Sequence record: NZ_CP067423.1
DNA: 64,000 nt
Source of the DNA: a plasmid
Reading direction: 5' to 3' (one strand)
In this document: piece by piece, positions 7,572-31,141 of the stretch
Layout of the letters: each line of letters opens with the position of its first letter
Numbering within the stretch: the first letter of the stretch is position 1
Notes under the pieces: generated by a model
Database searches by the model: none
What the model was told of the DNA's origin: nothing
The model's input: the letters and a program-made list of their open reading frames with translations, nothing else
Made by a program: the position numbers and the translations under genes

Positions 7572-7572
7572 T

Positions 7573-8657: not shown

Positions 8658-8664
8658 GCGCAAA

Positions 8665-8745: not shown

Positions 8746-8823
8746 ATAGTCAAGACCATTCAGGTCGGTTTGAGCGCCGATTCGGCGAGCAGGTTTCTTT
8801 TGCCTAGCAATAGGTGAAGGACA

Positions 8824-16758: not shown

Positions 16759-17061
16759 ACCTTAGCGCAAACAGTAGACGTCAGGCATGTTAGTACTGAT
16801 TAGCGATCGATGGTGATGTTGCTCAAGAGTCACACTAGCTGGGGCGAGGTCCATGCTGCATCTGATGATCATCGGAATTGCCGTGCTCGGCATGATCTGG
16901 AATGTGGACCTGGGCGCCCGGCCCTATGTCGACGTGGCAATGTGGCTTCTGTTCGCCGGGCTGATGTTTCACCTGGGTGACCGGTTCAACACCTGGCTGG
17001 ACCACTGGGCGGTCCGGCCCAGGTGGCGCCGGAACCGCCGCCGCGCAGCTGGACGGCCGGA

Positions 17062-17421: not shown

Positions 17422-17428
17422 TGATTTG

Positions 17429-18562
17429 TTACGTCTCCGGAAAAGGAATATCACTATTTATCTGAATTCGATAGATAGCGCCGGATCTCATCGTCAGTAC
17501 CGGCGGTCTCATTAATTCCCGGTTAACGTATTCACCGCCGACGCCTCGGATGCCCTGAGTGCCGACATTTACCGCGACACCGGCCGGCCCCTCGATCAAT
17601 CCACCCAAGGCGCCGACGAACGACAGCGCTCCCTCGATCAGGATGCCGGTGGCGATGCCGCTCCAGGGGTAGTCGCTCTCCGCCTCGACGCCGCTGGCGC
17701 CGTCCTGGCCGAGCGCCGGCGAACATGCCATCGGCATGATTCCACCCCCCAGCAGGTCGACCCGGGTGGCACACATCTGGACCCTCAGGTCGCCTCGGCT
17801 GACGCCGGTGGCGTTCAGCTCGGTCATGACGGTGCTGCCGGCGGGGATGGCCAGGCACTCCTCGACCTGACCGTTGCCCAGGAAAATCCGTCCAAAGGCG
17901 TCCTCGATGATGATGCCGCGCACCTGGCCGGGCAACTCGGTGCGAACCGGGTTCGGGTTCTGGATCACCAACTCCTCGCCCGCCTTCAGGATGCAGCCGG
18001 TCAGTTCGGGCTGCAGGCTGTGCGGGTGATAAAGGCCCTGGCCACTGCGACCACCGCCCCGAGTGTAGAAGTCAGACTTGGCGTTGCCGCCCTCGCCACC
18101 TGTCCCGGCTGCCACAGGTGTCGCTGCGACATCTCCGCTCCCCTGGGCCATGCTGCTACCGCCCAACAGCGGGTTCATCACGGCGCCCATGTGCTTGTTG
18201 TCGAACGCCAGAACCGACACCTTGAAGTTCCTGACCGGCTGCTTGCGTGGCACTTCGCTTCTCCGCTCCTGCCGGTGTCCGGGAGGCGGCGCTTGCTCGC
18301 CTGTTTCCGGTGGCGGTGTCTCGGCAACTTGCGGCCTGGGTTCGGGCGCCCGCGCGCTGATGGCCGCCGGCTCTAGACCCTTGGGCTCCTCGCGTTCCGA
18401 CTCGGTCGTGATCCCGGCCACGCCGTAGAGCATGGCGAGGACCGCAACGACGGAGGTTCCACCCAACAGCAGGGTCCGCTTGTTGAAGCGCCCGCTGTAT
18501 TCGCGGACAGGCTCCTCGATGCCATCCTCTCCGGGATGACGCTCCTTGTCGTAGCTTCTCAT
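17429..18562 (-). CDS. trbI: T4SS-2 VirB10/TrbI-like protein
   Basis: N-terminal TM (LLLGGTSVVAVLAMLYGVAG), Pro-rich linker (PEPRPQVAETPPPETGEQAPPP), and a C-terminal Gly-rich beta-barrel region. Position follows the trbG-like gene. Confidence 0.75.
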   Translation of the reverse strand: MRSYDKERHPGEDGIEEPVREYSGRFNKRTLLLGGTSVVAVLAMLYGVAGITTESEREEPKGLEPAAISARAPEPRPQVAETPPPETGEQAPPPGHRQERRSEVPRKQPVRNFKVSVLAFDNKHMGAVMNPLLGGSSMAQGSGDVAATPVAAGTGGEGGNAKSDFYTRGGGRSGQGLYHPHSLQPELTGCILKAGEELVIQNPNPVRTELPGQVRGIIIEDAFGRIFLGNGQVEECLAIPAGSTVMTELNATGVSRGDLRVQMCATRVDLLGGGIMPMACSPALGQDGASGVEAESDYPWSGIATGILIEGALSFVGALGGLIEGPAGVAVNVGTQGIRGVGGEYVNRELMRPPVLTMRSGAIYRIQINSDIPFPET

Positions 18563-19563
18563 CGTTCTCTCCGAACGGTCATGACGAGGTCACCGCGCAC
18601 GAACCGGACCTCTCCGGGCAGGCCGCGGATGACGTAGTGGCGAGAGGTGGGGTCGATCCAGAATGAGGGAGCCGATCCCCTGGGCAGGAACGGGACCGGC
18701 CGGCTGGATAGCCGGGCGGGCGGCAGGATGTAGGTATTGACGCCATCGTTGTAGGCCGACCACTCGCCGGGCAGGAATTCTGCAGGGCCGTGATAGACGT
18801 ACCGGGTATCCGAGACGGCGGTCGCGTCAGGCCTATGCACCGTAGCGGCTGTCACCCTCGGTTGATCGGACCCGTAGGTATGCTGGACGACCGGATGATA
18901 TGCTGCGTGGCACTTGCGGGGAGCGGCGTCCTCGGCCGGCTTACAGGACGGAACTACGAGATCGTAGAGGTACACCCTGCTGCCGGTAGCGATGGACAGC
19001 GATGTCCGCTCACCCTGTTTGTAGGCCTTGACGGTGACGATCAACCGGGCGCTGGCGGACTTCCTGTTGTTGGCCCGTTCCCGTTTGGCTCGCATGGACG
19101 TACCGTCGACGCCCCCGGCGGTCACCTCAACCATGAACCACTGCGGGTTTCCCAAGATAGCCTCCGGCGTGGCCTCGCCCGGCTCCAAGTAGAAGAGGGT
19201 CACATCGCTGTCGGTTTCCCCGTCGGCAGATGGGCCGTCCATGATAACCTGCTGTCGGACACCGTTCTGGAACGGGCAGGTCATGATTGATCCCTCGAAG
19301 CTGCAGTCCAGGGCGGTGCGCCGGGACCTCTTGACCATGGCCGCAGTCTTGGCGGCTGGCGACGTGAACTTCTTTTCCGGTTTGGCGGGCCCGGTCGCCA
19401 CACCACCAAAAGGCACGGGCACCTGCAGCGTGCCCGGCCCGGGAGGCTGAACCTCCTGGGCCTGGAGGTAGTCGTAAGTCAGTGACGGAGCATCACCCGA
19501 TGGACCGCCTGCGCAGCCCGCCAACACCACCCCCGCAACCGACATCAGCAGAAACTTACACAT
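18559..19563 (-). CDS. trbG: T4SS-2 VirB9/TrbG-like lipoprotein
   Basis: Lipoprotein signal MCKFLLMSVAGVVLAGC in a 334-aa product. Sits between the trbF-like and trbI-like genes and overlaps the trbI-like start by 4 bp. Confidence 0.7.
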   Translation of the reverse strand: MCKFLLMSVAGVVLAGCAGGPSGDAPSLTYDYLQAQEVQPPGPGTLQVPVPFGGVATGPAKPEKKFTSPAAKTAAMVKRSRRTALDCSFEGSIMTCPFQNGVRQQVIMDGPSADGETDSDVTLFYLEPGEATPEAILGNPQWFMVEVTAGGVDGTSMRAKRERANNRKSASARLIVTVKAYKQGERTSLSIATGSRVYLYDLVVPSCKPAEDAAPRKCHAAYHPVVQHTYGSDQPRVTAATVHRPDATAVSDTRYVYHGPAEFLPGEWSAYNDGVNTYILPPARLSSRPVPFLPRGSAPSFWIDPTSRHYVIRGLPGEVRFVRGDLVMTVRRER

Positions 19564-19628
19564 TTCCAGCCGTCCTCAATCGCGATTTATGGGCTGTATT
19601 ATATCCCATAAACAACCTCAGTTGAGCC

Positions 19629-20321
19629 TCACTCGGTGCCCAGGATTTCATAGTCGGTGATCAGGATGCCCATCGGGTTACAGTCCCGGATCTCGGCCGA
19701 GACGTTGGGGAACCGCTGCACCCGGAACTCCGCCGACTTCGGCACCACGGTCCTGCGCATGCCGTCGTCGAACGTCTCCGACCAAGCCGCGCTGATCCAC
19801 ATGCCCTCGGTGTTGCTGCGCTCGCCAGGGCGGCGCCCCACCCGCACATCTTTCTCCGACAGGATGCGCTTCTGGCCGCGGCGCACCATCTCGACGCCGG
19901 CAGATCGTTCGAACGACCGGTTGGCCTTGGTCGCGGCCGGGCCGGTGACGGAGCAGTACAGGGTGTCAATCATCTCCTGCACCTGGGCCGAGGAGTCGAT
20001 CCGACGCAGCCTGTAGACCAGGCGCTTGACCTCGGCGCGGGCCGCTGCCTCGAACTCATCAGCCTTCAGGTCGCCGGCCCTGATCACCTTGAGGGACGTG
20101 AAGTCGCTGTCGAGCAGAGCGGCGAACACTTCCGGCGGCGCCGCCGCGATCTGTTCGCGCTTGTAGACCTGAAAGCCGTTCAGCCCCAGGCTTGCCGCCA
20201 GGGCGAGGACCAGGGCGCGCAAGGCGCCCCGCTGCTGCTGGGCGAGCCATCCCGGGCGGAACGGCTTGGTTTGCTCGACGGTCGGCTCTGGCTGGGTGCG
20301 GCGCATGCGGATCTTGTCAAA
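19629..20321 (-). CDS. trbF: T4SS-2 VirB8/TrbF-like protein
   Basis: True start MFDKIRMRR (ATG at 20321; upstream ORF-track extension is Arg/His-rich junk). Short cytoplasmic N-terminus, one TM (ALRALVLALAASLGLNGF), then a periplasmic domain. Position after the trbL-like gene. Confidence 0.6.
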   Translation of the reverse strand, partial: FDKIRMRRTQPEPTVEQTKPFRPGWLAQQQRGALRALVLALAASLGLNGFQVYKREQIAAAPPEVFAALLDSDFTSLKVIRAGDLKADEFEAAARAEVKRLVYRLRRIDSSAQVQEMIDTLYCSVTGPAATKANRSFERSAGVEMVRRGQKRILSEKDVRVGRRPGERSNTEGMWISAAWSETFDDGMRRTVVPKSAEFRVQRFPNVSAEIRDCNPMGILITDYEILGTE

Positions 20322-20326
20322 CATTC

Positions 20327-21367
20327 TTATACTCTCCTGGATTGGCCGGCTGCGGCCTTGGCGACGCGGGACCAGTACTGGCTCTGAGCTGCGGCCGATG
20401 CCGTCGTCCTGGCGCCGCTGGCCACCCGTTGGGCGCCCTGGCCGATGCCGCGCCAGGTGCTCGTCATGTGCGTGACCTCGCGCTGCGCCAGGGAGCGCCC
20501 GCGCTCGACCATCGCCCCGGTGCCAGTGACGGACCTTGCGACGTTGCCGATGCCCCGGGTGATGGCCTGGGATGACAGCTGCGGCACGGCACTGATGATG
20601 CCGGCGGAAAGCGTTCGGGACTGCCAGGCCAGCCACGCGATGAACACGGCGAGCAGCACCGCCGGGATGATGTCGTCGAAGACCGGCGTTGGCGGCAGGT
20701 CCATCAGCTCGAATGCCCGCGAACCGATGCCGGCGACCATGGCGATGATGACCAGCTTGACCAGGTTGTTCAGCCAACCCTGGATCGCGCCCTCGGCCAT
20801 GTTCTTCGTGAACGGCGTCACGGCCATCGGCGTGAACAGCAGCATGAACAGGCCGTTGGTCTTATAGCCGATCGCCGTGGTCGCCATCTCGAACACCAGG
20901 AAGGCGAATGCCACGTAGATGAACAACGCCGCCAATTCCAGCATAAGCCTGTCGTCCAGGGTTTTGCCGCATTCGATCCACCCGGAGCACAGGGCCTGCT
21001 TCGTGGCCAGGATCTTGTCGGCCTGACCATCGCCGATGCCCCAGAGGGCGGATGGTGTGAACAGGTCCGCGGTCGCGCCATCGGCACCGACGATCCCGCC
21101 ACCGAGTGCCAGCGCGAAGTTGCCGGCAGCGTCGACGATTTCCTTGGCCGACCAGGCGATGGCCAGGAACAGCCAGAAGATCACGAACATCCCGATCAGG
21201 TCGCCGATGATGTTGTCCATGGCACCGGCCAGCCAGGCGAAGGCCAGCCGGGTGACGGCCCATCCGAACGCCAGGGCGAAGGTCGCCAGCACCACCGGCA
21301 TGATCAGCTCGAAGCCGGCGTCCAGGATGCCTAGGACCATGAAGAAAACTTCATCGACGACGCTCAT
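20327..21367 (-). CDS. trbL: T4SS-2 VirB6/TrbL-like polytopic membrane protein
   Basis: True start MSVVDEVFFMVLGILDAG (ATG at 21367). Five or more hydrophobic helices and a Gly/Ala/Gln-rich C-terminal tail as in TrbL. Confidence 0.75.
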   Translation of the reverse strand: MSVVDEVFFMVLGILDAGFELIMPVVLATFALAFGWAVTRLAFAWLAGAMDNIIGDLIGMFVIFWLFLAIAWSAKEIVDAAGNFALALGGGIVGADGATADLFTPSALWGIGDGQADKILATKQALCSGWIECGKTLDDRLMLELAALFIYVAFAFLVFEMATTAIGYKTNGLFMLLFTPMAVTPFTKNMAEGAIQGWLNNLVKLVIIAMVAGIGSRAFELMDLPPTPVFDDIIPAVLLAVFIAWLAWQSRTLSAGIISAVPQLSSQAITRGIGNVARSVTGTGAMVERGRSLAQREVTHMTSTWRGIGQGAQRVASGARTTASAAAQSQYWSRVAKAAAGQSRRV

Positions 21368-21591
21368 GGCGGATGCTTCTGGGTCAGGGTTTTCGGGTCC
21401 ACCTTGCGCTGGCCGCATTCGGGACAGTCGCCGAGGCCGCGGTACAGCCGATCGATCTTCTCCTGCGCCTGCTGTTCCTGGCGCCTGATTTCTTCCTGCA
21501 TGATCCGTAGCTCCTCGGCCGCAGGGTCGGGGTGCGGGGCGGGGCACAGCACGGTCAGGCCGATGCCGAGCAGGATTGCGCAGATGTCCAT
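21364..21591 (-). CDS. small secreted/lipoprotein-like protein in the trbK (entry-exclusion) slot
   Basis: 75 aa with signal-like MDICAILLGIGLTVLC followed by a charged coiled segment. Sits between the trbJ-like and trbL-like genes with overlapping stop/start. Confidence 0.4.
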   Translation of the reverse strand: MDICAILLGIGLTVLCPAPHPDPAAEELRIMQEEIRRQEQQAQEKIDRLYRGLGDCPECGQRKVDPKTLTQKHPP

Positions 21592-21600
21592 GTCGTCACC

Positions 21601-23544
21601 TCACTGGAAAAGAGCGCGACCGGTAGGAGTGCGGGGCTCAAGGGATCCCGGCCCATAGAGGCGCCGGACCTTCTGGTCCGCGATGATCTCCTGGACGCGC
21701 TGCTCCTCGGTCGTCCGGAGCATCGCCGTCGCCATCGCCGCATCACCGGCCTGCCTGGCGGCATCAACAGCGATCTGGGTGCGCAGCATCTGGGTCTGCG
21801 CCTGGATAGCCTGAGTCTGGCCGACTGCTCCCTGACTCAGCCCCAGGACCTCGTCAGACATGTCGAGAGCAGCATCGATGCTGGCCTGGGCCGCTGCCTG
21901 GGTGCGGGCAGCCTCGCGCGTGGCGTCGCTGGTCCTGGTGCGGACCTCGTCCATGTGCAGTCCGGCATCCTCGAAGGTCCAGCTTTCGGGCATGCCCTCC
22001 TGGTAGCGTTCCTGCATCACACCATCAGCATCGACTCCATAGAGATCGGGATCAATGCTGCCCAGCTGACGCCGGGCTGCCTCTTCGACGGTCGAGGCAC
22101 CGGCTGCGGCACTGGCACCAAGCCTCTGCGTCATCTTTCGCTGTTCGGCGAGCTGGCGCTGCTGGGCGGCGAGTTGCTTGCCCAGGCACAGGTTGCCGGC
22201 AATCGCGGTCATCTGCTGGGCGATCTGCGCCGTCAGCGTCGCCCGACCGCCCGAGAAAATCCCGCTGACCACCGATGCGGCGCCGCCGATCATCGCGCCG
22301 CCGATGTTGCACTTCACGGTCTCGACAGCGCTGTCGACGTAGTCCTCGATCGGCTGCAGCACGGTATCGACGGCGTCGCCGATGGTGTTGTTGACCGCGC
22401 TGGTCACCTGGCCAGTGGCCCGGTTGATGATCCGGTTGCCCTCACGCACGATGATGCCGCCGGAGACCAGGTCGTTCAGCCGGCGCACAGCACCGGCCTC
22501 GCCCCGTTCCACCGCCCGCCAGAACTGGTCGTCCGTGTTGTAGAAGTTGTCCGCCAAGCCGTCGACGTTGCGTTCAAACTGGCTATCCGTGCTGCCGTCC
22601 CAGGCCGAGGCTCCGGTGCCGCCGGCCACCCGGTTGTTTTCGATGGTGTTGTTCCGGCTGGTGATCGAGCCCGGCATATGGCTGTTCTGGCCGTTGCTGA
22701 TACCACCGCTGATGTTGTTGCCCTCGATGCGGTTGTTCTCGGCCGAGACCACCCGCACGTCGCCCCGGATGTCGTTGCCGGTGACGACGCTGTTCTCCGC
22801 CTCGTTATCCTGGAACTCGTCGGGGAACTGGTCCATCCGATTCAGCCGGCTGTTACCGTAGCCACCGACCGACACCGCCGTGTCGGCATCAATGTCGATG
22901 GTGTTGTTCACCAGCTGCACGCCGTCGCTGCCGGCCTTCCAGGTGATGCCTGCGAATCCGGCCTTGCCTTTGATCGTATTCCCTTCGTATCGGACGTTCC
23001 TGACCGAGACGTTGTCGATGGCCTCCTGGCGCCAGTGGCCGTCGATCGTATTGCCGGCCACCAGGACGGACTGCTGGTCGGTCGGGCTCATGTTGAACAG
23101 TTTGAAGCCGTCCTGCCCTTCGCCGGTAATCAGGTTGTTGGTGACCTTGAGGTTACCGATGTTCCCGTAAGACCCCCACAGCTTGAAGCCGCCGACGTCA
23201 CCGCCGCTTGGTGCGTCGGCGATCACGTGGAAACCGTCGATCTCCACGTTGGTGATGCGGTTGGCCTGCACGGCGGCCTGGTTGCGGCTGCCCCGGATCA
23301 CCGCGGCACCTTTGCCGTCGACAGAGAAGATTCGAATGGGTGCGCCCGGATCGCCGTGCAGGTTGCTCAGGTCCAGGCTGCCGTTATAGGTGCCGCTGTA
23401 GACGGCGACGGTGTCGCCCGCCCTGGCCGAACGGATCTTGGCCTCCAGGTTGTCTCCCGGCCTGACCTCGATCGTGGCAGCCAGCGCCGGTGTGCCGAGC
23501 ACCGTTCCCGCAAGCAACATCCCCGCGAAAACTCCTCGCCACAT
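21601..23544 (-). CDS. 647-aa secreted fusion protein: N-terminal right-handed parallel beta-helix (PbH1-type repeats) + C-terminal TrbJ/VirB5-like helical domain
   Basis: Start MWRGVFAGMLLAGTVLGTPALA (signal peptide). Repeated NNxI/GNxI turns (VTNNLITGEG, VAGNTIDGH, YEGNTIKGK, LVNNTIDID, IEGNNISGG, SRNNTIENNRVAGG). C-terminal ~270 aa are Q/A-rich helical. Occupies the trbJ slot between trbE and trbK/trbL. Confidence 0.7.
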   Translation of the reverse strand: MWRGVFAGMLLAGTVLGTPALAATIEVRPGDNLEAKIRSARAGDTVAVYSGTYNGSLDLSNLHGDPGAPIRIFSVDGKGAAVIRGSRNQAAVQANRITNVEIDGFHVIADAPSGGDVGGFKLWGSYGNIGNLKVTNNLITGEGQDGFKLFNMSPTDQQSVLVAGNTIDGHWRQEAIDNVSVRNVRYEGNTIKGKAGFAGITWKAGSDGVQLVNNTIDIDADTAVSVGGYGNSRLNRMDQFPDEFQDNEAENSVVTGNDIRGDVRVVSAENNRIEGNNISGGISNGQNSHMPGSITSRNNTIENNRVAGGTGASAWDGSTDSQFERNVDGLADNFYNTDDQFWRAVERGEAGAVRRLNDLVSGGIIVREGNRIINRATGQVTSAVNNTIGDAVDTVLQPIEDYVDSAVETVKCNIGGAMIGGAASVVSGIFSGGRATLTAQIAQQMTAIAGNLCLGKQLAAQQRQLAEQRKMTQRLGASAAAGASTVEEAARRQLGSIDPDLYGVDADGVMQERYQEGMPESWTFEDAGLHMDEVRTRTSDATREAARTQAAAQASIDAALDMSDEVLGLSQGAVGQTQAIQAQTQMLRTQIAVDAARQAGDAAMATAMLRTTEEQRVQEIIADQKVRRLYGPGSLEPRTPTGRALFQ

Positions 23545-23825
23545 CACACCTCTCCTTTGTGCCGTATACAGGATATGAGAGATCCCATAATTGCCCGCCC
23601 CGCATAGCCCACCGCGATCAGCGCTCCACCGAGGCTCACCAGCAGCGTCAATGACCGCCACGGCTGGGGCAGGTCGGCGGTTAACCACCTGACCAGCGGC
23701 ACCCCTTCGGTCAGGATCAGGACCCCGATGCCGAGAAGGGCCAGGGAGCCGGCGACGCCGATGGCCAACCCGGGAAGCAGGTAAACCATGGACCGTTTCA
23801 GGATCTCGGCGGGATACCCGTTCAT
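23544..23825 (-). CDS. small two-TM membrane protein of unknown function between trbE-like and trbJ-like genes
   Basis: 93 aa with two hydrophobic helices (LLPGLAIGVAGSLALLGIGVLIL; LTLLVSLGGALIAVGYAG), translationally coupled on both sides. Confidence 0.4.
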   Translation of the reverse strand: MNGYPAEILKRSMVYLLPGLAIGVAGSLALLGIGVLILTEGVPLVRWLTADLPQPWRSLTLLVSLGGALIAVGYAGRAIMGSLISCIRHKGEV

Positions 23826-26275
23826 TCTGCGGCCCTCAGTATGGTTTCGGGTTCATCGCCCAGGAGCGGACCGACGTCGACGCCGTGCTCTGCCATCCAA
23901 CTGGTCAGGAAGTCGCCGCCCCGGCGCTCGACCTGGCGGGCGTGCTGGTAATGGTGATCGTCGGTCTGGAGCACCATGGCCGAGGCGATCGGGGAGCCGA
24001 GGTCGAAGGTCACCACCGCTTTCCCGACGCCGGGCCGGTGGACGAAGTATTCACCGGCCTGCGCCATGCCAGCGATCACCTCGGCATCGTGCTGGCTCAG
24101 TTTCAGCTCTCCCAGGACCTGCAGACCCTCGGTGGTGGTCACCGCGGTGTCCTGCACGTAGATTTGGGTCGGGCACGAATTGAGGATGATGTGCGAGATG
24201 TCCGACCTGGACAGGTCGAGGACCGACTGGGTGGCGAAGACAACCTGGGTCTTGAGCTTGCGGTATGTCCGGAGACCCCAGCCAAGCCCCTTCACGAACC
24301 CGCCCGCGACATAGGCACTGGCCTCGTCGAGCTGGAGCATCAGCGGCCGGCGCGAGCTGGACAGCCGCATGATGTGCCGCCACAGGTAGGAGATCAGGGC
24401 CGGCGCCGCCACGGCCTCGTCGTCGTCCGTGATGGCTGAAAGTTCAAAGTTGATCCAGTCGGCCTCGTAACTGCGATTGTCAACGGCATCGAAGATGTAG
24501 CCGAGCGGACCGTCGTGAGTGTAGATCCGCATCGCCTTGGCCGCGTCCTCCGACGGCACGTTCAGGCAGAACGTTGTCATGGTCCGGTCGTCCGGTGGCA
24601 TCCGCGCCATGATCCGGAGCGCAGCGTCGACTGCCTGGGAGATGTCGGAGTTGTCGGCCGCGGCGCCGATCTGCTGGCGGATGCGCGCCAGCGTCCAGGA
24701 ATGCGCCCAGGCTCTGTCGGTAGGCTTGTCGATCTGGCGGTAAGGCTGCACGCCGCAACCCTGCTCGCCGATGTTGAAGGTCACCCCACCAACCAGCTTG
24801 GCCGCGACATAGCCGGAGCGGCCGGACTCGACCCGCATGACACGACCACCGGGGACGGCGGTGATGTGCCCGAGGCCCAGGGCATTGAGACCTGATGTTT
24901 TGCCGCCGCCCGTGCCGCCGCACAGGAAGCAGTGCCGGGTGGCCCCGTCGATGTGCAGCGACAACGCGAACCGGCTGGTCGAGCTGGTCCGGCCATGGAG
25001 GAGGATCGGACTCTTGGTTGACCCTAGATCTCCGGCCCAGGCCTTGGTCAGCGGCGCGGTGACCGCGGCGGCCAGCAGGTTGACGCCGGGTCGCACGAAG
25101 TCGACGTCGGTCTTGCCGGGGATCGCCCCCAGGACGCAGTCGTGAGTCGTCAGGTCGTTGATCTCGACCCCGAACCCGTGGTCGAGCAGGAATTCCTCAA
25201 TCTTGCCGGCCTGCGTCTTCGCCTCGCCCCGGTCCTCGTGGTAGACCAGGACGTTGTCCGTGGTCTGGCACCGGAGCACGCCGCCCCGCTGCAACTCCAG
25301 CAGCATGGCGTCGGTTTCCTCCAGGGTGACGGTCGCAGCCTTGTTGTTCAGCGGGCTCAACGCATCCTTCTGGAACTGGCGCATCACCTGGAGCAGCATG
25401 CTTTCCTGGGTCAGCGCCGCCTTGCGGACCAGCCACTCCAGCTCACGCACGGACTCGGCCTTGGACTGGGTCCGGATACGCTTAACCCGACGGATGCGGT
25501 AGCCCAGCTCGGACAGGCCGTTGAACGTGTCGTTACCGAAGTCCAGGGCGCCGGCTTCTATGCTCCGCGGATAGGTGTTGATCTGGACGGACCGCACGTT
25601 GAGGCGGTTGTGCTCATGACCCAGCCACAGCGGGCGACCGCCGGTCAGGGGGCTGTCGATCAGCTGCGGCGCCAGGAACTCGTAAGGATCGATCGAGATC
25701 GGCCTGTCGTTGACGGAGATGGTCGACCGCAGGTACGTGGCTAGGTCATCGCCTTCCAGAACCTCCGCCCCCACGAAGCGCAGGAGTGCGGCCATCCGGT
25801 CCACCGACCGGACGTAGTCGTCGAACATCGGGCCGTAATCGCCCCGGGTCTCGCCCGGCTCCGGCAACAGCAGGGCATTACGCAGCCTCACCGCCAGCCC
25901 GGCCGGTGGATTGTGCCGTACGGAAACATAATGCCGGCTGCCGAAGTGAGTGCCGTCGCCATGCACCGCGGTCCGGTCGATACCGTAGAGGCGGGCCGCT
26001 CGGTTCTCCGTCGTCTGAACCTGGATACCAGGGAGCGGACCACGCCGCTCCTCGACCCAGATCCACTTTCCACCGCCCAGGGTCTGCAAGGCCACCGCGA
26101 ACCGGGCAGCATGGCGCAAACGCTGCTCATCGCTGGCCGTGGACAGGTCCGGTGGTGCCAGTGCCATGGCCATCAGCCAGCCGAACTGGCTGCACGCCAC
26201 GACGCGCGGCCGACCCGCATGCGGCAGCATGGTCAGCCAGGGCACCTCGTCGCGCAGGTAACGCTTCCTTGTCAT
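23822..26275 (-). CDS. trbE: T4SS-2 VirB4/TrbE-like ATPase
   Basis: Walker A CGGTGGGKTSGL and Walker B-like MLQLDEASAY in an ~817-aa product starting MTRKRYLRDEVPW. Follows the trbD-like gene with 1-bp overlap. Confidence 0.9.
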   Translation of the reverse strand: MTRKRYLRDEVPWLTMLPHAGRPRVVACSQFGWLMAMALAPPDLSTASDEQRLRHAARFAVALQTLGGGKWIWVEERRGPLPGIQVQTTENRAARLYGIDRTAVHGDGTHFGSRHYVSVRHNPPAGLAVRLRNALLLPEPGETRGDYGPMFDDYVRSVDRMAALLRFVGAEVLEGDDLATYLRSTISVNDRPISIDPYEFLAPQLIDSPLTGGRPLWLGHEHNRLNVRSVQINTYPRSIEAGALDFGNDTFNGLSELGYRIRRVKRIRTQSKAESVRELEWLVRKAALTQESMLLQVMRQFQKDALSPLNNKAATVTLEETDAMLLELQRGGVLRCQTTDNVLVYHEDRGEAKTQAGKIEEFLLDHGFGVEINDLTTHDCVLGAIPGKTDVDFVRPGVNLLAAAVTAPLTKAWAGDLGSTKSPILLHGRTSSTSRFALSLHIDGATRHCFLCGGTGGGKTSGLNALGLGHITAVPGGRVMRVESGRSGYVAAKLVGGVTFNIGEQGCGVQPYRQIDKPTDRAWAHSWTLARIRQQIGAAADNSDISQAVDAALRIMARMPPDDRTMTTFCLNVPSEDAAKAMRIYTHDGPLGYIFDAVDNRSYEADWINFELSAITDDDEAVAAPALISYLWRHIMRLSSSRRPLMLQLDEASAYVAGGFVKGLGWGLRTYRKLKTQVVFATQSVLDLSRSDISHIILNSCPTQIYVQDTAVTTTEGLQVLGELKLSQHDAEVIAGMAQAGEYFVHRPGVGKAVVTFDLGSPIASAMVLQTDDHHYQHARQVERRGGDFLTSWMAEHGVDVGPLLGDEPETILRAAE

Positions 26276-26276
26276 G

Positions 26277-26582
26277 TCAGGTCTCCAAGTCAGTGCGACG
26301 GCGCAGAGCGCGCACGGCAAAGCGCAAGAGGTTTTCCTGATAGAAGGGATTGTCCTTGGCCAGCATGACGCCGCCGTACCACATCGCGCCCGTGCCCAGG
26401 CACAGCACGACGATCACGGAGATGATGTTCCGGCCGCTGGGGGTGACGGCATACATCGTGAAAACCGTCCCGCAGATCCACCACAGGGCGATTACCAGGA
26501 CCGTCGAGAGTCGGCAGCTCCCCGGCATGTAAGGATGCTGTCCACTCCGTCGGATCTCGATGCCGTAATCCAGCGACGCCAT
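26277..26582 (-). CDS. trbD: T4SS-2 VirB3/TrbD-like protein
   Basis: 101 aa with two TMs (LSTVLVIALWWICGTVFTMYAV; IISVIVVLCLGTGAMWYGGVML), between the pilin and trbE-like genes. Confidence 0.65.
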   Translation of the reverse strand: MASLDYGIEIRRSGQHPYMPGSCRLSTVLVIALWWICGTVFTMYAVTPSGRNIISVIVVLCLGTGAMWYGGVMLAKDNPFYQENLLRFAVRALRRRTDLET

Positions 26583-26884
26583 CAGGCCCCGCCGAGGCCC
26601 AGGACGTATTCGGCCAGCAGCGGCACGCCACCGATGAAGGCGCCGATCGCGGCACCGACGATGGCCTTGCCGATGCCGCGGCCGGGATCTCCGACCATGG
26701 CACCGAGCAGGGCGCCGATGATGGCCAGGCCGACAATCATCAACCCGACGTTCTGGATCATGAAGTCCCAGATGTCCTGGGTGAACGTCTCGATGCCGTT
26801 GGCAGGGATCTGCGCCAGGGCAGGGCCGGCGAAAGCAGTCAGGCCCAGGACGATGGCGGCGGAAAGGGACTGGTTCGTCTTCAT
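26582..26884 (-). CDS. trbC: T4SS-2 VirB2/TrbC-like pilin precursor
   Basis: 100 aa: signal peptide MKTNQSLSAAIVLGLTAFAGPALA, then two hydrophobic segments with Gly-rich packing (GLMIVGLAIIGALLGAMVG...AIVGAAIGAFIGGV). Confidence 0.7.
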   Translation of the reverse strand: MKTNQSLSAAIVLGLTAFAGPALAQIPANGIETFTQDIWDFMIQNVGLMIVGLAIIGALLGAMVGDPGRGIGKAIVGAAIGAFIGGVPLLAEYVLGLGGA

Positions 26885-27960
26885 TGGATCAACTCCGAAG
26901 AAGAATTGCCGGATATATTATAGCCTGTATTGAGTTGATGGGGGACATCAACACGGGTCAGTCTGTAACCTGTGGTTTCATCGCAGCCACCGGGCCGGAA
27001 CACCCCGACGATGTCGCGGCCACCACCCGCCCGGCGCCTAATCCAAATGATGCGCTGCAGGGTCTTCATCAGCACGCGACGCTGCGGCACCGGGTCGATG
27101 CCGGCCTGCGCCACCATCTGCTCGATGCGGTCAAAGAAATCGGCCGGGTTGCTTGCGTGCAATGTCACCAACCCGCCGGTATGGCCGGTGTACTGGGCCA
27201 TGATGAAAACCCAGAGCACGCCATCGCGGGCTTCGCCGAGGATGATGCGGTCAGGCCGGCAGCGCAGCGCATCCTTCAGAAGATCCGCCATGTCCAGGCC
27301 GATGCTGGACAGGCGCAGCACGTCGGCCACGCACGGAAACTGCATCTCCGGCGTATCCTCCAGCGTGACCAGACGATCCGGCTGCACCGCCGGATGATTG
27401 GCCATGCTGGTCAGGAGACTGGTCTTGCCGCTGCCGGTCTCGCCGAACACCGCGACTGTCAGCTTGTTCGCCAAGGCCGCGGCGATGCAGTCCATGGTCG
27501 GCAGGCCCTGGCCGATCGTGTCGGTCTCCTCTTGGGCGAAGTGGACCTCGCGACCCGCGATCGGCGCCACGCCGTCGGCGACGTAGTCCCCAAAAGACCG
27601 GATGGTCCTGGGCAGGAAGCGGAGAACCACATAAGGGCCACCCACGGCTCGGGGCGGGATGCCGCCCTGGAACCGGATCTGCCCGGGAAGATCGGCGGCG
27701 AAGCTCAACCGTCCCCTGCCCTCGGCCACGATGCCGGCGAAGCGCGCGGCCAGGGTCACGATCTGCTGGCGCCGGTCAGCATCAAACTGGGTCTCAAGCC
27801 GGCGCTTGCCGACGGAGCCATAGACGAAGGCTCGACCATCCGGGTTGATGGCGATGTCCTCGGTACCGGCCTGCGCTGCCAGGGTCTGGATTTCGGCGCC
27901 CAGAGCATTGTTCAGCAGGCGTTCGGCCTCGCCCCGCTCACGATCGGAAAGCGGGATCAT
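26881..27960 (-). CDS. trbB: T4SS-2 VirB11/TrbB-like ATPase
   Basis: Walker A VFGETGSGKTSLL, then RIILGEARDG and VTLHASN motifs, in a 359-aa product. Confidence 0.9.
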   Translation of the reverse strand: MIPLSDRERGEAERLLNNALGAEIQTLAAQAGTEDIAINPDGRAFVYGSVGKRRLETQFDADRRQQIVTLAARFAGIVAEGRGRLSFAADLPGQIRFQGGIPPRAVGGPYVVLRFLPRTIRSFGDYVADGVAPIAGREVHFAQEETDTIGQGLPTMDCIAAALANKLTVAVFGETGSGKTSLLTSMANHPAVQPDRLVTLEDTPEMQFPCVADVLRLSSIGLDMADLLKDALRCRPDRIILGEARDGVLWVFIMAQYTGHTGGLVTLHASNPADFFDRIEQMVAQAGIDPVPQRRVLMKTLQRIIWIRRRAGGGRDIVGVFRPGGCDETTGYRLTRVDVPHQLNTGYNISGNSSSELIQ

Positions 27961-28373
27961 TTTGCCGCCTCCATTTTCTGGACGAGATCCTGCACCTGGC
28001 GCACGTGATCGGCCTGGGTGACGGGATGCTGCTCCGGCGGCAGGTAGCGCAGCCGTGTCTCGAAGTTGGCGATTGCCAGCAGGGTGCGGATCTGGTGAGC
28101 CATGCGGTCGATCTGTCCGCGCATCTCGACCAGGGTGGCGGCGACCGCGTCCGACTGATCGGCAGCCGCGTCAACCTTGCCCATGGCGATGTTGATGCAC
28201 TGCTCGACGATGGCGTTGCGCGACCACTTGCCTTGCATCTGCGCCTCGATCCAGGCGTCCTGCTCCTCGGCGAACAGCACCTCCCGGGCCTTCCGGCCGA
28301 CGTAGCGGTTGCCCCTCGGGCGTCGTGCCCGGCGCTCTGCCGCCGTCGCGAGTACATTCGTGTCCATCATCAC
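27957..28373 (-). CDS. hypothetical 138-aa protein between T4CP and trbB-like genes (possible relaxosome/transfer accessory)
   Basis: Protein-like composition (MMMDTNVLATAAERRARRPRGNRYVGRKAREVLFAEEQDAWIEAQ...). Tightly packed: the stop overlaps the trbB start, and the start is 2 bp after the T4CP stop. Confidence 0.45.
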   Translation of the reverse strand: MMMDTNVLATAAERRARRPRGNRYVGRKAREVLFAEEQDAWIEAQMQGKWSRNAIVEQCINIAMGKVDAAADQSDAVAATLVEMRGQIDRMAHQIRTLLAIANFETRLRYLPPEQHPVTQADHVRQVQDLVQKMEAAK

Positions 28374-28374
28374 C

Positions 28375-30235
28375 TCACATCATCAGCGGAACATCGTCGG
28401 CCGGTATCGGGGTTGGTGTCTGGATGGGCTCGGGCACGGGGTCTGGTTTTGCCGCCGGCTTCACCGGCACCTTGGCCTTGAACCTCTTGTTCTTCTTCTC
28501 CTCGGCCTTCCCGGGCTCAGGTGCTGGACCCCGTACCGACGGTTCCTCGAAGCAAATGGCGTCCCACAGGTTTCGGGCACCCACCTCGAGCGGCAGATCC
28601 AGGAAGGCACCCTTGTCGTCGCGCACCGGCAGGAACTCGACGTCTAGCGGTAACCAGGACCTTGGCGCTGGGTTGACCAGCGAGCGCCAGCTGCTCAGCG
28701 GCGGCCGGCTGACTTTGATCGGCTTGGTGTAGCCGCAGACCAGGACGTCGTCCTCCGACAGCCGCAACACCGCCTCGGTCGGCAGGATCGGCTTGCGCAC
28801 CCGGGACCGTGTCAGCCCGGCGCCCCGGCGCTCGCCGCCGGCGCCGTAACTGGCGTTGTCGGACTCTGCGGTGACCTCGACGAAACCGATCGCCTTCGAC
28901 AGCTTCTCGGCCTCGCCGCTGTCGAACGGGCGCAGGGCGACCAGCCGGCTATTGTTGAAGATCAGCGACTTCTCGCCGTAGATCACCGCCAGAACGCCGT
29001 CGGACTGGGCGCCCAGCATGGCCCGGCAGTGGTAGGAGCGCATGTCGGCCATGGCGCCCTCGATGGCGTCGACCTTGCCGAACCGGTTGAACTCGTCAAG
29101 CGCGAAAAGCATGCAGTGACGCTTCCACCGGGCACCGATCCTGTCCTGGTGCCCCATGATCGCGTTCAGGATCTGTGACGTCATCATGCGGACCAGCGGC
29201 GCCAGCCTGGCCGAGTGCTCCGGCGGCAGATGCAGGTTCAGCAGCACCGGGTTCGGCCCGCACATCAGGTCTTCCGGCGAGAACTCGCACGACGATGTTG
29301 CAGAGTCGACGCACGGGTCGGCGTAGACGTTCAGATAGCTATCTATCGTTGCCAGGATGCTACCGACGTAGCGTTCGTTGTTGTTCTGCCAGATCTTCCG
29401 GGCCGCACTGGCGATCTCCTCGCGGAGGATCGGGTTCGGGTGCTGCTGGCGCATCATCCGGTCGCCGCCCTCCCGGCCGGTGGCGTGGAAGCGCCGCAAG
29501 CCGCCCAGGTTCCGTTCCTTCGGGTCGCCGAAGTTGGCCAGGAACATCATCTCGGCCGTGGCGAGCGCCTTGGCGTTCTCGTCCCAGATCGGCTCTTTTG
29601 CCTGGCTCGTGTCGGTATGCGGGAGCAGGGCAGCGAGGTTCTGGAACCCGGCGATCTGATCCACTCCAGTTCCGACGCGGGCCATGGGATTGTACCTGAC
29701 GCTGTCCGGCAGGGTCGGCGCGAACAGCAGGTTATGCCGCCACCGGCTGGAACCCTGGAGCAGCAGCCAAAAGTCACCCTTGCGGTCATGCACGATGGCG
29801 CTGCCCCGCCAGGTCCGCATCAGCGTCGGCAGGAAGAACGAGGCGGTCTTGCCCGACCCTGTCGGACCGGTAACCCGAACATGCATCTGGTGCCGGTCAA
29901 TCAGCAGGCGCCCGTCTGCCGTCGCTCCGACGGTGATCCCGCCAGGGTCGGCTATCACCGGCCGGTTCTCGAAATCCATCTCGAGATTCCCCTCTTCATC
30001 GGTTTGATCAGCCCGAACTGCACCAGGTCGGCCTCGGTTGCCCAGGCCGCCTCGACCTGGTCCTCCGTGCCCCGCATTCGCGGATTGAGCAGCCGGCTGG
30101 TGATCCGGGTGGCGGCGATCTTCACGACCACGACGAGACCGACCATGCCGACCAGCAGCCCCAGCCCGGCCGGAACGAACCACCATTCATGCTGGGCGAC
30201 CTGCGCCCAGACCCACCATTCGCGGATCACTCCAG
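28375..30235 (-). CDS. VirD4/TraG-family type IV coupling protein, interrupted by a frameshift near 30005 (possible pseudogene or sequencing error)
   Basis: N-terminal part (GTG ~30235, frame A: TM helix WWFVPAGLGLLVGMVGLVVVV, then AAWATEADLVQFGLIK like the GSARWA motif) stops at 29955. Frame B continues GNLEMDFENRPVIADPGG...Walker A VTGPTGSGKTAS...to 28375. Confidence 0.75.
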
Positions 30236-30850
30236 CCCTCCCTCTCGGCCGTGCGACCGCCCGGCCTGGCGGACCGGCACGCCGGTGTTCGGGTCCAGCC
30301 CCATCTGCTGCCGGCGCTCCTGGACCGCCTTGCACTTCGCGTCCGGGTCGACTCCGCGCTCTGCCCGGTATCCCAGATGCTGGGTCGCAACCTCCCTCGC
30401 CCTGGCCCGGAGGCCATGCGAGACGTACCCACTCGACAGGCGTAAATTCCTGTCTTCCACCCTGGCCCGCATCACCACGTGAGTGTGCGGATGGTCGGTG
30501 TCCCAGTGCTGGACGGCCATCCATTCGAGCTTCACGCCGCGCCGCTGTTCGTCCTCGGTCAGCAGATCCTTTTCCACCTTGCCCATGACCTCGCGGGTGT
30601 AGGCCTCCAGGTCGAGCCGGTGTCCTTCCTCCGGGGAGAGGATGAATTTGTAGTACCTGTTGTCCTCGCCCCAGCCATGGACCTGGGCAAACATCTCATC
30701 CCGGGTCGCCGGATTGCCGTCTTGGTCGATCCCCTTCAGTTCGCCCTCGCGGGTGATGTACCTGATGTTGTCCCGAAGCGACCGTTTGAACGCGGGCTGC
30801 CCGTTGTGCGCCGCCCGGTACTTCACCTTGACCATGACCCGCTGCGCGAA
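30227..30850 (-). CDS. VirD2-like (MOBP-type) relaxase domain protein, ~205 aa
   Basis: Motif I region QRVMVKVKYRAAH...IRYITREGELKG resembles the VirD2 and RP4 TraI N-termini. Motif III HWDTDHPHTHVV (HxDxDxxHxH). Stop TGA overlaps the GTG start of the T4CP (GTGA). The ORF-track extension to 31084 looks non-homologous. Confidence 0.65.
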   Translation of the reverse strand, partial: FAQRVMVKVKYRAAHNGQPAFKRSLRDNIRYITREGELKGIDQDGNPATRDEMFAQVHGWGEDNRYYKFILSPEEGHRLDLEAYTREVMGKVEKDLLTEDEQRRGVKLEWMAVQHWDTDHPHTHVVMRARVEDRNLRLSSGYVSHGLRARAREVATQHLGYRAERGVDPDAKCKAVQERRQQMGLDPNTGVPVRQAGRSHGREGGLE

Positions 30851-31141
30851 CCGCCCAGGCTTGACGGTCCACCGACCGCGCACCGTGACGCCCGTCGCCG
30901 GCATCGGCACCCGGCGCACCGCCTGGGCCTCTGGCGTCTTGTGATGGCGCACAGGTCGTAGTTGCAGCCCGGCCGGGCGGCCCAGCGTCACCGGAGCTCG
31001 CATCAGCGGCGCCTCGGCAACCGGCGCCGCCTCCTCGATCCGATCCCGTCCATTCACTCCCTCCCCGAGAATGATATACATCATATCCCAATTTCACGGC
31101 AGAACGAAGCCCGGTACAGACCGGAGCACGACCCGGAACAT

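What the first reader, a model, noticed from the sequence alone, without database searches (positions are those of the whole stretch)
21601..23544. Pilus-tip slot of the second T4SS encodes a beta-helix::TrbJ/VirB5 fusion protein
The gene between the trbE-like ATPase and the trbK/trbL-like genes, where trbJ (VirB5-type minor pilin/tip adhesin) normally sits, encodes 647 aa instead of ~250. After a cleavable signal peptide, ~350 aa carry repeated NNxI/GNxI/GNDI turns (VTNNLITGEG, VAGNTIDGH, YEGNTIKGK, LVNNTIDID, VTGNDIRGD, IEGNNISGG, SRNNTIENNRVAGG). These are characteristic of right-handed parallel beta-helices such as pectate lyases and phage tailspike depolymerases. The C-terminal ~270 aa are Gln/Ala-rich helical, like TrbJ/VirB5. 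A carbohydrate-binding or polysaccharide-degrading beta-helix displayed on a conjugative pilus tip would be an unusual recipient-recognition or surface-penetration device. I have not seen this described for P-type T4SS.
Basis: partly seen in the sequence, partly recalled or inferred. Interest (0 to 1): 0.8.

Follow-up and report, generated by a model that had tools for sequence, protein, structure and literature searches.

The report
TrbJ pilus-tip protein carrying beta-helix head
The gene that normally makes the small tip protein of a plasmid's DNA-transfer pilus here carries an extra, swappable head that resembles sugar-chain-cutting enzymes and phage tailspikes, which could be how the plasmid gets through a partner cell's slime or capsule.

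Summary
One intact 647-aa gene (minus strand, 23544→21601) lies in a divergent Trb-type conjugation operon, between trbE and a small trbK-position ORF plus trbL. An extra 93-aa membrane ORF separates it from trbE.

The protein has four parts:
- a Sec signal peptide (residues 1-22);
- a confidently modelled right-handed beta-helix (23-~320) whose closest solved folds are PL31/PL6 polysaccharide lyases, the AlgE4 epimerase and phage tailspikes;
- a conserved ~90-aa neck;
- a divergent TrbJ domain (410-647; hhalign 99.2% against a set that is 95% TrbJ by NCBIfam).

A direct fold match to VirB5 structures was not obtained; only weak CagL hits appeared.

The gene is a mosaic. Residues 1-463 are 87-97% identical to a Skermanella plasmid protein whose T4SS is otherwise about 26% identical. 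Residues 464-647 match the ordinary 267-aa TrbJ of an operon that is 62-88% identical throughout. Heads and cores reassort across the family: about 20 of the 150 nearest TrbJ cluster representatives carry a beta-helix head, and all isolate hits are Skermanella.

Tip display and polysaccharide binding or cleavage are inferred, not shown. I found no published description. This is a new variant of a known kind.

The parts
21601..23544 (-). Whole CDS: 647-aa beta-helix::TrbJ fusion (ATG 23544, stop 21601-21603)
   Evidence: The ORF and ribosome-binding site were read directly. A 95%-identical 647-aa protein is present in three independent assemblies.
23479..23544 (-). Sec-type signal peptide, residues 1-22 (MWRGVFAGMLLAGTVLGTPALA|ATIEV)
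   Evidence: This was read from the sequence. All 10 aligned homologues have an equivalent hydrophobic N-terminus ending in A-x-A/G. No signal-peptide predictor was available.
22585..23478 (-). Right-handed parallel beta-helix head, residues 23-320. It carries an Asn ladder and the invariant residues D145, K148, D177 and K203.
   Evidence: Pfam Beta_helix gives E 2.4e-7. AF2 pLDDT is mostly 85-96. Foldseek finds the PL31 alginate lyase 6kfn at 1.4e-6, plus PL6 lyases, AlgE4, RbmB and tailspikes. A profile search of PDB sequences finds the PL6 lyase AlyGC at 2.2e-8, aligned over the N-terminal cap only. Invariant residues were counted over 38 homologues.
22318..22584 (-). Conserved neck or adaptor, residues 321-409, predicted helical at low confidence
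   Evidence: This is the most conserved segment across the family. It is 76% identical to P0009, where the head is 29% and the core 34% identical, and 70-97% identical across most members. It also occurs without a beta-helix (P0022, P0028, P0030, P0032, P0035, P0042) and with a different beta-helix (P0037). AF2 pLDDT is below 60.
21604..22317 (-). Divergent TrbJ (VirB5-counterpart) domain, residues 410-647, with a conserved Cys pair at C412 and C453
   Evidence: The profile search retrieves TrbJ-length proteins, and 87 of 92 are NCBIfam TrbJ. hhalign gives 99.2%, E 7e-20, over 192 columns. AF2 with a deep alignment gives pLDDT above 90 for residues ~490-630, with three long helices and a small appendage. 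The stand-alone relative P0178 starts at the equivalent of C412.
22155..23498 (-). Recombinant segment: DNA 81-87% identical to Skermanella plasmids pTT6-4, pSR-5 and a 613-kb S. rosea plasmid. It ends at codon 463.
   Evidence: In a megablast of window 17000-30500, only this stretch matches. At protein level, residues 1-463 are 87-97% identical to the pTT6-4 protein, residues 464-647 have no hit, and TrbE is 25.6% identical.
23544..23825 (-). 93-aa two-TM ORF between trbE and the fusion gene. Its start overlaps the trbE stop and its stop overlaps the fusion's ATG.
   Evidence: Translation is. Homologous ORFs occupy the same place in L005 (91 aa), L007 (85 aa, 48% identical) and L009-L011 (93 aa). 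There are no Pfam or NCBIfam hits.
23822..26320 (-). TrbE/VirB4 ATPase (longest ORF 832 aa; called as 817 aa in near-identical contigs)
   Evidence: NCBIfam TrbE NF010447 gives E 2.1e-90.
21364..21591 (-). 75-aa ORF in the trbK position
   Evidence: The ORF is listed. It is 78% identical to the 72-aa ORF in the same place in L007 and 43% identical to the one in L005. It has no family hit, so it is assigned by position only.
20327..21367 (-). TrbL/VirB6 (346 aa)
   Evidence: Pfam TrbL gives E 1.3e-13. Near-identical contigs call it at 346 aa.
17429..20324 (-). TrbF/VirB8-like (19629-20324), TrbG/VirB9 (18559-19563) and TrbI/VirB10 (17429-18562)
   Evidence: Pfam gives VirB8 (weak), CagX at 4e-9 and TrbI at 1e-13.
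26277..31084 (-). Upstream part of the operon: TrbD-position ORF (26277-26582), TrbC pilin (26582-26884), TrbB (26881-27960), 138-aa ORF, TraG coupling protein (28375-30186) and relaxase-like gene (30227-31084)
   Evidence: Family hits are. The same gene order occurs in L005, L007 and L009.

Best explanation
The gene encodes the TrbJ (VirB5-counterpart) subunit of this plasmid's second, divergent Trb-type conjugative T4SS. A head has been grafted onto its N-terminus. After Sec export and signal-peptide cleavage, the mature protein consists of a ~300-aa polysaccharide-lyase-like right-handed beta-helix, a conserved ~90-aa neck and a TrbJ helical domain.

Shown:
- the domain architecture;
- its place in the operon;
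- its recurrence in other T4SS loci;
- its mosaic origin. The head, neck and first TrbJ helix (residues 1-463) came by recombination from the trbJ of an unrelated T4SS lineage. Residues 464-647 are this operon's own TrbJ core.

Inferred:
- The TrbJ core assembles, like VirB5, as a pentamer on top of TrbL/VirB6 and is pushed out on the tip of the growing pilus.
- The VirB5 N-terminal part projects outward in the pentamer, so up to five heads would sit at the distal end.
- There they bind, and possibly cleave by a Lys/Asp-dependent lyase-type reaction, an acidic surface polysaccharide (EPS, capsule or LPS) of the mating partner or of the shared matrix. This would give the pilus access and set partner specificity, much as a phage tailspike does.
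- Reassortment of heads and cores between T4SS lineages would then retarget the pilus.
For: - Architecture.
- TrbJ identity of the core.
- Same slot in five other kinds of locus: pTT6-4 and pSR-5, L003, L005 and L009-L011. A plain 267-aa TrbJ fills that slot in the most similar operon, L007.
- Mosaicism: window versus P0002 is 89% (head), 91% (neck) and 14% (core). P0006 versus P0009 is 34% (head), 92% (neck) and 75% (core).
- Head resembles carbohydrate-active beta-helices: PL31, PL6, AlgE4, RbmB and tailspikes.
- D145, K148, D177 and K203 are invariant in 38 homologues down to ~30% identity. From sequence register and the model's strands, they lie on successive rungs. That pattern is expected of an active or binding site rather than a spacer.
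- The same head is joined to RTX repeats in Skermanella proteins (P0012-P0017). RTX repeats are a layout typical of type-I-secreted proteins (my knowledge), which suggests the head can work outside the cell.
- Literature: TrbJ is listed as the RP4 counterpart of VirB5, which forms a pentameric stalk and pilus tip (PMC12624023). The VirB5 N-terminal part projects out in the pentamer, and the pilus grows from the base and pushes VirB5 out (PMC9259494). Capsules limit conjugation depending on pilus type (PMC10918111).
Against: - There is no experimental evidence for localisation, oligomeric state, binding or catalysis.
- The window protein itself matches no curated TrbJ or VirB5 model. The fold search of the C-domain gave no significant VirB5 match.
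- Similarity to lyases of known structure is low (9-15% identity). At sequence level it covers only the N-terminal cap, so known catalytic residues could not be mapped.
- Five ~45-kDa N-terminal appendages would have to fit inside the outer-membrane core complex and pass its channel. They could also interfere with the N-terminal helix rearrangement proposed for VirB5.
- The same head is also fused to TrbL/VirB6, an inner-membrane stalk protein (P0011). That fits a periplasmic site of action at least as well as tip display.
Confidence: 0.5

Rival explanations
1. The head works inside the donor's own envelope and is never displayed to the recipient. Tethered to the central stalk (TrbJ or TrbL), it clears or remodels periplasmic or nascent exported polysaccharide around the assembling machine, or opens the donor's own EPS layer for the emerging pilus.
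For: A homologous head is fused through a ~110-aa Pro-rich spacer to the N-terminus of TrbL/VirB6, which stays in the inner membrane (P0011). Before pilus growth, VirB5 sits in the periplasm on top of VirB6 (PMC12624023). Periplasmic beta-helix enzymes acting on exported polysaccharide are known, for example AlgG (my knowledge). The related AlgE4 A-module is among the fold hits.
Against: The RTX-linked relatives suggest an extracellular setting for this head. The P0011 locus has its own SLT lytic transglycosylase, so the head is not a stand-in for VirB1/TrbN there. Frequent head swapping between lineages is what one expects of a part facing variable partner surfaces rather than the donor's interior. 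However, a donor's own EPS type also varies.
Confidence: 0.25
2. The beta-helix is a non-enzymatic and possibly non-carbohydrate adhesin or rigid spacer, as in autotransporter passengers, filamentous haemagglutinin or yeast beta-helix adhesins. It lengthens or stiffens the tip, or binds a protein receptor.
For: Beta-helices are common adhesin scaffolds; PMC8746771, found, is an example. No lyase catalytic constellation could be mapped. VirB5 proteins are regarded as adhesins (PMC12624023).
Against: Four charged residues (D145, K148, D177, K203) are invariant across 38 homologues that otherwise fall to ~30% identity. All of the best sequence and fold matches are polysaccharide lyases, epimerases or depolymerases, not adhesin passengers.
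Confidence: 0.2
3. The long ORF is an artefact: a frameshift, a mis-assembly or a decaying pseudogene that joins a beta-helix gene to trbJ.
For: The window protein gave no family hit when scanned whole. Read-level data were not available.
Against: The same 647-aa ORF (95% identical) occurs in three independent assemblies. The architecture recurs in about 20 cluster representatives at 50% identity and in several Skermanella replicons. The neck joining the two parts is the best-conserved segment. Start and stop are translationally coupled to the neighbouring genes.
Confidence: 0.02

Closest known systems
TrbJ of P-type conjugation systems (RP4 and Ti plasmid), the counterpart of VirB5, TraC (pKM101), TrwJ (R388) and CagL
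   Same: It has a Sec signal peptide. It sits after trbE and before trbK/trbL. Its helical, Gln/Ala-rich domain of about 240 aa is homologous by profile to TrbJ. The modelled topology is a long helix, a small appendage and two long helices. It belongs to an operon with a coupling protein and a relaxase-like gene.
   Different: It carries about 390 extra N-terminal residues (beta-helix plus neck). Scores fall below every curated TrbJ or VirB5 cut-off. It has a conserved Cys pair at C412 and C453. A 93-aa membrane ORF is inserted between trbE and trbJ. No significant structural match to TraC or CagL was obtained.
Polysaccharide lyases with a right-handed beta-helix (PL6 alginate lyases and chondroitinase B, PL31 alginate lyase 6kfn, PL9 Pel9A) and the AlgE4 mannuronan epimerase A-module
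   Same: It shares the fold, the N-terminal cap motif (xGDTIxLxxGTY) and the Asn ladder. It has conserved Asp and Lys residues on successive rungs. Relatives carrying RTX repeats have the same two-part layout as AlgE enzymes (the AlgE layout is from my knowledge).
   Different: Identity is 9-15%. Sequence alignment covers only the cap. The known catalytic residues and Ca2+ site could not be mapped. The domain is tethered to a secretion-machine subunit rather than being a free enzyme.
Phage tailspike and tail-fibre depolymerases
   Same: A beta-helix head sits at the distal end of a DNA-delivery organelle. Heads are exchanged as modules on a conserved adaptor. Foldseek hits include the CBA120 TSP2, P22 and HK620 tailspikes.
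   Different: There is no phage context. There is no tailspike-type N-terminal particle-binding domain and no evidence of trimerisation. The carrier would be a pentamer, and the resemblance in function is an analogy only.
Evolved VgrG and PAAR spikes of type VI secretion systems, and extended VirB6 proteins
   Same: A tip or stalk subunit of a secretion machine is extended by an extra functional domain. The VirB5 pentamer has been likened in shape to the PAAR-VgrG tip (PMC12624023). Extended VirB6 proteins with large hydrophilic domains are known (PMC12857230), and a TrbL with this same head exists (P0011).
   Different: These are different machines and folds. Extended VirB6 proteins carry central or C-proximal domains of unknown role. 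Neither review that I searched for VirB5 (PMC12857230, PMC12624023) mentions an extended VirB5/TrbJ.

Membership tests
TrbJ / VirB5 family (T4SS stalk and pilus-tip subunit) | Gene position between trbE/virB4 and trbK-trbL/virB6 | tested here: met
   TrbE is at 23822-26320, the target at 21601-23544, the 75-aa ORF at 21364-21591 and TrbL at 20327-21367. A 93-aa ORF intervenes on the trbE side. The homologous operon L007 has a plain TrbJ in this slot.
TrbJ / VirB5 family (T4SS stalk and pilus-tip subunit) | Score above the curated cut-off of a TrbJ or VirB5 model (NF010448, TIGR02780, TIGR02791, PF07996) | tested here: not met
   The window protein and its C part give no hit even at E<=10. Relatives hit NF010448 and TIGR02780 at E from 1e-18 to 1e-4, but at 19-66 bits against cut-offs of 225 and 100.55.
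TrbJ / VirB5 family (T4SS stalk and pilus-tip subunit) | Homology to TrbJ at superfamily level (profile methods) | tested here: met
   The C-domain profile finds 293 representatives at E<=1e-3, mostly 225-280 aa and matched end to end. Of the 92 scanned, 87 are NCBIfam TrbJ and 5 also match VirB5. hhalign gives 99.2%, E 7.3e-20.
TrbJ / VirB5 family (T4SS stalk and pilus-tip subunit) | Three-helix bundle with a small globular appendage, as in TraC 1R8I and CagL | tested here: inconclusive
TrbJ / VirB5 family (T4SS stalk and pilus-tip subunit) | Pentamer on VirB6 and localisation at the pilus tip | not testable with these tools
   This needs multimer modelling or experiment. It is known for TrwJ and VirB5 from PMC9259494 and PMC12624023.
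Right-handed parallel beta-helix (pectate-lyase-like, PbH1 repeats) | Pfam Beta_helix above the gathering score | tested here: met
   PF13229 scores 30.9 bits against 25.9, E 2.4e-7, on residues 23-380. The domain is not reported when the whole protein is scanned.
Right-handed parallel beta-helix (pectate-lyase-like, PbH1 repeats) | Predicted three-dimensional fold and Asn ladder | tested here: met
   AF2 pLDDT is mostly 85-96 with regular three-strand rungs. Foldseek gives 20 PDB hits at E<=1e-3, all beta-helix enzymes or tailspikes. Ladder Asn residues are conserved in 36-38 of 38 homologues.
Polysaccharide lyase families PL6, PL9 and PL31 | Catalytic base/acid residues and Ca2+ site of the family in equivalent positions | tested here: inconclusive
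   Sequence alignments to PL6, PL31 and PL9 chains cover only residues ~23-140, the cap.
Polysaccharide lyase families PL6, PL9 and PL31 | Lyase activity on a defined polysaccharide | not testable with these tools
   This requires a biochemical assay.
Phage tailspike depolymerase | Trimeric beta-helix with an N-terminal virion-binding domain, encoded in a phage genome | tested here: not met
   The context is a conjugation operon on a repABC plasmid. The head starts directly after the signal peptide. Tailspikes appear only as fold neighbours. The oligomeric state was not tested.

The most novel reading that the evidence does not exclude
Some conjugative pili carry exchangeable enzyme-like receptor-binding heads on their VirB5/TrbJ tip, joined through a conserved neck. 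On this reading, plasmids retarget or widen their recipient range, or penetrate EPS or capsule, by swapping heads between unrelated T4SS lineages. That would be a tailspike-like strategy in conjugation.
Probability: 0.35. Interest if true: 0.85.

Novelty: new variant of a known kind. Interest (0 to 1): 0.7.

Why it matters
How a conjugative pilus recognises a partner, and how it gets through capsule or exopolysaccharide, is poorly understood. VirB5 is thought to be the tip adhesin, and capsules measurably limit conjugation (PMC12624023, PMC10918111). A TrbJ carrying a lyase-like head would be a natural example of a pilus tip equipped to bind or cut surface glycans.

The observed reassortment of heads and cores offers a ready experimental handle. 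One could swap heads, or revert to the plain TrbJ of the sister operon, and measure recipient range.

The fusion also poses a structural question for current T4SS models. A pentameric stalk tip with five ~45-kDa N-terminal appendages must somehow be housed in the core complex and pass through it.

In practical terms, such heads could guide the engineering of targeted conjugative delivery.

Tried and rejected
- Whole-protein Pfam and NCBIfam scans gave nothing. The beta-helix domain appears only when the N part is scanned alone.
- A profile search of the C-domain against PDB sequences gave only a weak, probably spurious hit to a phage tape-measure protein (E 0.034).
- The first AF2 run, with a 10-sequence alignment, left residues 307-518 below pLDDT 50. 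A 147-sequence alignment rescued the TrbJ core but not the neck.
- A scan of the GTDB genome collection with the family alignment returned no confirmed locus, although Skermanella genomes are known to carry the gene. I treat this as a limitation of the pattern search and used tblastn on plasmids instead.
- The context of the chromosomal Skermanella copy P0004 was not on record.
- One long TrbJ-like representative matched an arabinofuranosidase catalytic domain. I could not tell which protein it was. It may be the repetitive, doubtful hit P0078, so I do not use it.
- I considered that the head might replace the VirB1/TrbN lytic transglycosylase. I rejected this as the main idea because the fold neighbours are polysaccharide lyases, not muramidases, and because the TrbL-fusion locus has its own SLT.
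- The 691-aa ORF on the plus strand (21532-23607) was rejected as a gene. It is antisense to a conserved gene in 65% G+C DNA.
Full report
**1. What is in the sequence**

The finding's coordinates hold one open reading frame on the minus strand. It runs from ATG 23544, preceded by AAAGGAGAGG, to the stop at 21601-21603 and encodes 647 aa. The 691-aa ORF on the plus strand over the same stretch is antisense to a conserved gene in ~65% G+C DNA, and I disregard it.

The gene lies in a minus-strand operon. The gene order is:
- relaxase-like gene (30227-31084)
- TraG coupling protein (28375-30186)
- 138-aa ORF
- TrbB
- TrbC pilin
- TrbD-position ORF
- TrbE (23822-26320)
- 93-aa two-TM ORF (23544-23825)
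- the target (21601-23544)
- 75-aa trbK-position ORF (21364-21591)
- TrbL
- VirB8-like TrbF
- TrbG
- TrbI

All matches to Trb models are significant but far below equivalog cut-offs, so this is a divergent P-type system. The window itself is a repABC plasmid with TraR and a Ti-type TrbB at 1309-2496. "Second T4SS" is therefore a fair description.

**2. Domain anatomy**

- **Signal peptide.** Residues 1-22 look like a Sec signal peptide (…TPALA|ATIEV). This is read from the sequence; no predictor was available.
- **Beta-helix head.** Residues 23-~320 are a right-handed parallel beta-helix.
  - Pfam Beta_helix scores above its gathering threshold when this part is scanned alone (E 2.4e-7).
  - AlphaFold2 gives regular three-strand rungs with pLDDT mostly 85-96.
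  - Foldseek against the PDB returns 20 hits at E<=1e-3, all beta-helix carbohydrate enzymes or tailspikes. They are led by the PL31 alginate lyase 6kfn (1.4e-6), followed by PL6 chondroitinase B and alginate lyases, the AlgE4 epimerase A-module, the RbmB lyase and the CBA120 and P22 tailspikes.
  - A sequence profile of the family also hits PL6 lyases (AlyGC 2.2e-8), PL31 and Pel9A, but only over the N-terminal cap.
  - Over 38 homologues, some only ~30% identical, the Asn ladder and four charged residues (D145, K148, D177, K203) are invariant. From the strand pattern of the model they lie on three successive rungs. This is my reading of sequence register; I did not inspect coordinates.
- **Neck.** Residues 321-409 form a neck that AF2 cannot place (pLDDT below 60).
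- **TrbJ-like domain.** Residues 410-647 are the TrbJ-like domain. The stand-alone relative P0178 begins, after its signal peptide, at the equivalent of C412, and the pair C412/C453 is conserved.

**3. Is the C-terminal domain TrbJ?**

The window protein hits no curated model directly. The case rests on profile methods and close relatives:
- A profile of the C-domain of ten family members, run against 1.84 billion cluster representatives, found 293 proteins at E<=1e-3. Most are 225-280 aa and match over nearly their whole mature length.
- Of the 92 short hits scanned, 87 match NCBIfam TrbJ NF010448, 86 match TIGR02780 and 5 also match VirB5.
- An alignment restricted to the window's own C-domain type aligns to that set at 99.2% probability, E 7e-20, over 192 columns.
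- Close full-length relatives hit TrbJ models directly: P0004 at 1.8e-10, P0021 at 2.7e-7, P0053 at 1e-15 and P0050 at 3e-14. JGI names P0053 TrbJ.

All of these scores are below the curated cut-offs. The domain is therefore a divergent member of the TrbJ superfamily, not an equivalog.

**4. Recurrence and context**

The same architecture sits directly after trbE and before a small ORF plus trbL in several loci:
- Skermanella sp. TT6 plasmid pTT6-4 and S. rosea plasmid pSR-5;
- metagenomic contigs carrying P0021 and P0009. The P0009 operon is fully syntenic with the window, including a 91-aa ORF after trbE;
- three independent assemblies carrying the 95%-identical P0001.

HMMs I built for the head, neck and core show head plus core in about 20 of the 150 best TrbJ-like representatives. 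Neck plus core without a head occurs in six, and a different beta-helix on the same neck occurs in P0037. In PLSDB, tblastn finds relatives only in Skermanella: 10 records, often several per genome. The fusion is real, recurrent and confined, as far as isolates go, to one genus of Azospirillaceae plus uncultured relatives.

**5. Mosaic origin**

Megablast of the whole operon against plasmids matches only window 22155-23498, at 81-87% identity. This is codons ~16-463 of the target.

| Comparison | Segment or gene | Identity |
|---|---|---|
| Window vs pTT6-4 protein | Residues 1-320 | 87% |
| | Residues 321-424 | 88% |
| | Residues 425-463 | 97% |
| | Residues 464-647 | no detectable match |
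| | TrbE | 25.6% |
| Window vs contig L007 | TraG | 75% |
| | TrbB | 84% |
| | TrbC | 88% |
| | TrbE | 84% |
| | TrbL | 80% |
| | TrbI | 74% |
| | 267-aa TrbJ in the trbJ slot vs residues 464-647 | 62% |

L007's TrbJ has no head and no neck. The window gene therefore arose by grafting head, neck and first TrbJ helix from a distant T4SS lineage onto this lineage's own TrbJ core.

A segment-wise identity matrix shows the reverse event as well. P0006 and P0009 share the neck (92%) and core (75%) but have heads only 34% identical. Heads and cores reassort around a conserved joint.

**6. How it probably works**

Established knowledge supplies three points:
- TrbJ is the RP4 counterpart of VirB5, a pentamer that caps the VirB6 stalk and becomes the pilus tip (PMC12624023).
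- In the R388 structure the VirB5 N-terminal part projects outward, and the pilus grows from the base, pushing VirB5 out (PMC9259494).
- Capsules limit conjugation in a pilus-dependent way (PMC10918111).

From this I infer that the heads sit at the distal end of the stalk and pilus. There they would bind or cleave a surface polysaccharide, most plausibly an acidic EPS or capsule given the lyase and epimerase neighbours and the invariant Asp/Lys set. The existence of the same head on RTX proteins (P0012-P0017) suggests that it functions outside the cell. The AlgE-like reading of that layout is from my knowledge.

**7. Rival explanations**

The main rival is a donor-side, periplasmic role. The same head is also fused, through a Pro-rich spacer, to the N-terminus of TrbL/VirB6, which stays in the inner membrane. 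That locus has a short protein in the trbJ slot and its own SLT. A non-enzymatic adhesin role is also possible. An artefact is effectively excluded.

Steric accommodation of five ~45-kDa appendages in the core complex is an open problem for the tip model.

**8. Novelty**

Full-text searches found no description of a beta-helix or other enzyme-like domain on TrbJ or VirB5. I searched two recent T4SS reviews for VirB5 and read the passages returned. One review discusses extended VirB6 proteins. None of the passages I read mentions an extended VirB5. Database records call these proteins hypothetical or "right-handed beta helix domain-containing".

I rate this a new variant of a known kind, with interest 0.7. 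The architecture and its modular exchange are solid. The proposed function would be surprising to specialists and is directly testable, but it remains inferred.

Noticed in passing
window 23544-23825 (-): A 93-aa ORF with two predicted TM helices lies between trbE and the fusion gene. Its start and stop overlap both neighbours. It is conserved in the same position in related operons (L005 91 aa, L007 85 aa at 48% identity, L009-L011 93 aa) but absent from the pTT6-4 and pSR-5 type. It has no family hit and its role is unknown.
   Followed up: partly
L008 4219-6570 (P0011): A homologous beta-helix head is fused through a ~110-aa proline-rich spacer to the N-terminus of TrbL/VirB6. That locus has a 167-aa protein in the trbJ slot and its own SLT lytic transglycosylase. 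This N-terminally extended VirB6 bears on where the head acts.
   Followed up: partly
P0012-P0017 (Skermanella and metagenomes): The same head (42-47% identical) is joined to RTX/HemolysinCabind repeats instead of TrbJ. The layout recalls AlgE-type secreted epimerases and suggests that the head is an extracellular polysaccharide-active module.
   Followed up: no
P0180 and P0181 (321-322 aa, metagenomic): These TrbJ proteins have the window's core type (47-48% identical). After the signal peptide they start with 'TLTAVPGDTIEV', which resembles the first strand of the head, followed by a Gly-rich stretch. They may be remnants of head deletion.
   Followed up: no
window 22318-22584 (-) and family alignment A1: The neck is the best-conserved segment of the family. 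It is 70-97% identical where heads fall to ~30% and cores to ~14%. It may be a binding or oligomerisation element, or simply the shared recombination joint.
   Followed up: partly
window 21532-23607 (+): A 691-aa ORF runs antisense to the fusion gene. It is most likely a by-product of high G+C content and not a gene.
   Followed up: partly
window 1309-2496 (-), 3104-3865 (+), 6330-10140 (+): A Ti-type TrbB (E 2.5e-167), a TraR-like autoinducer-binding regulator and repABC are present. The window is a repABC plasmid whose first, canonical trb operon runs off the left end, so its own trbJ is not in the window.
   Followed up: partly
window 34776-35789 (-) and 32227-34275 (-): An RTX-repeat protein (337 aa, no beta-helix head detected by tblastn) and a 682-aa protein with an Rpn-family nuclease/transposase-like C-terminal half lie just beyond the second T4SS.
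   Followed up: no
window ~61190-62278 (+): A third T2SSE/VirB11-type ATPase is present, 28% identical to the operon's TrbB. It may belong to a Tad/Cpa-type pilus or another secretion system.
   Followed up: no
alignment A4 (long TrbJ-like representatives): One of the 37 long hits matches Pfam ArabFuran-catal (E 8e-22), and one matches PF07996 (VirB5-type T4SS protein). I did not identify which proteins these are. The first may be the doubtful repetitive hit P0078.
   Followed up: no
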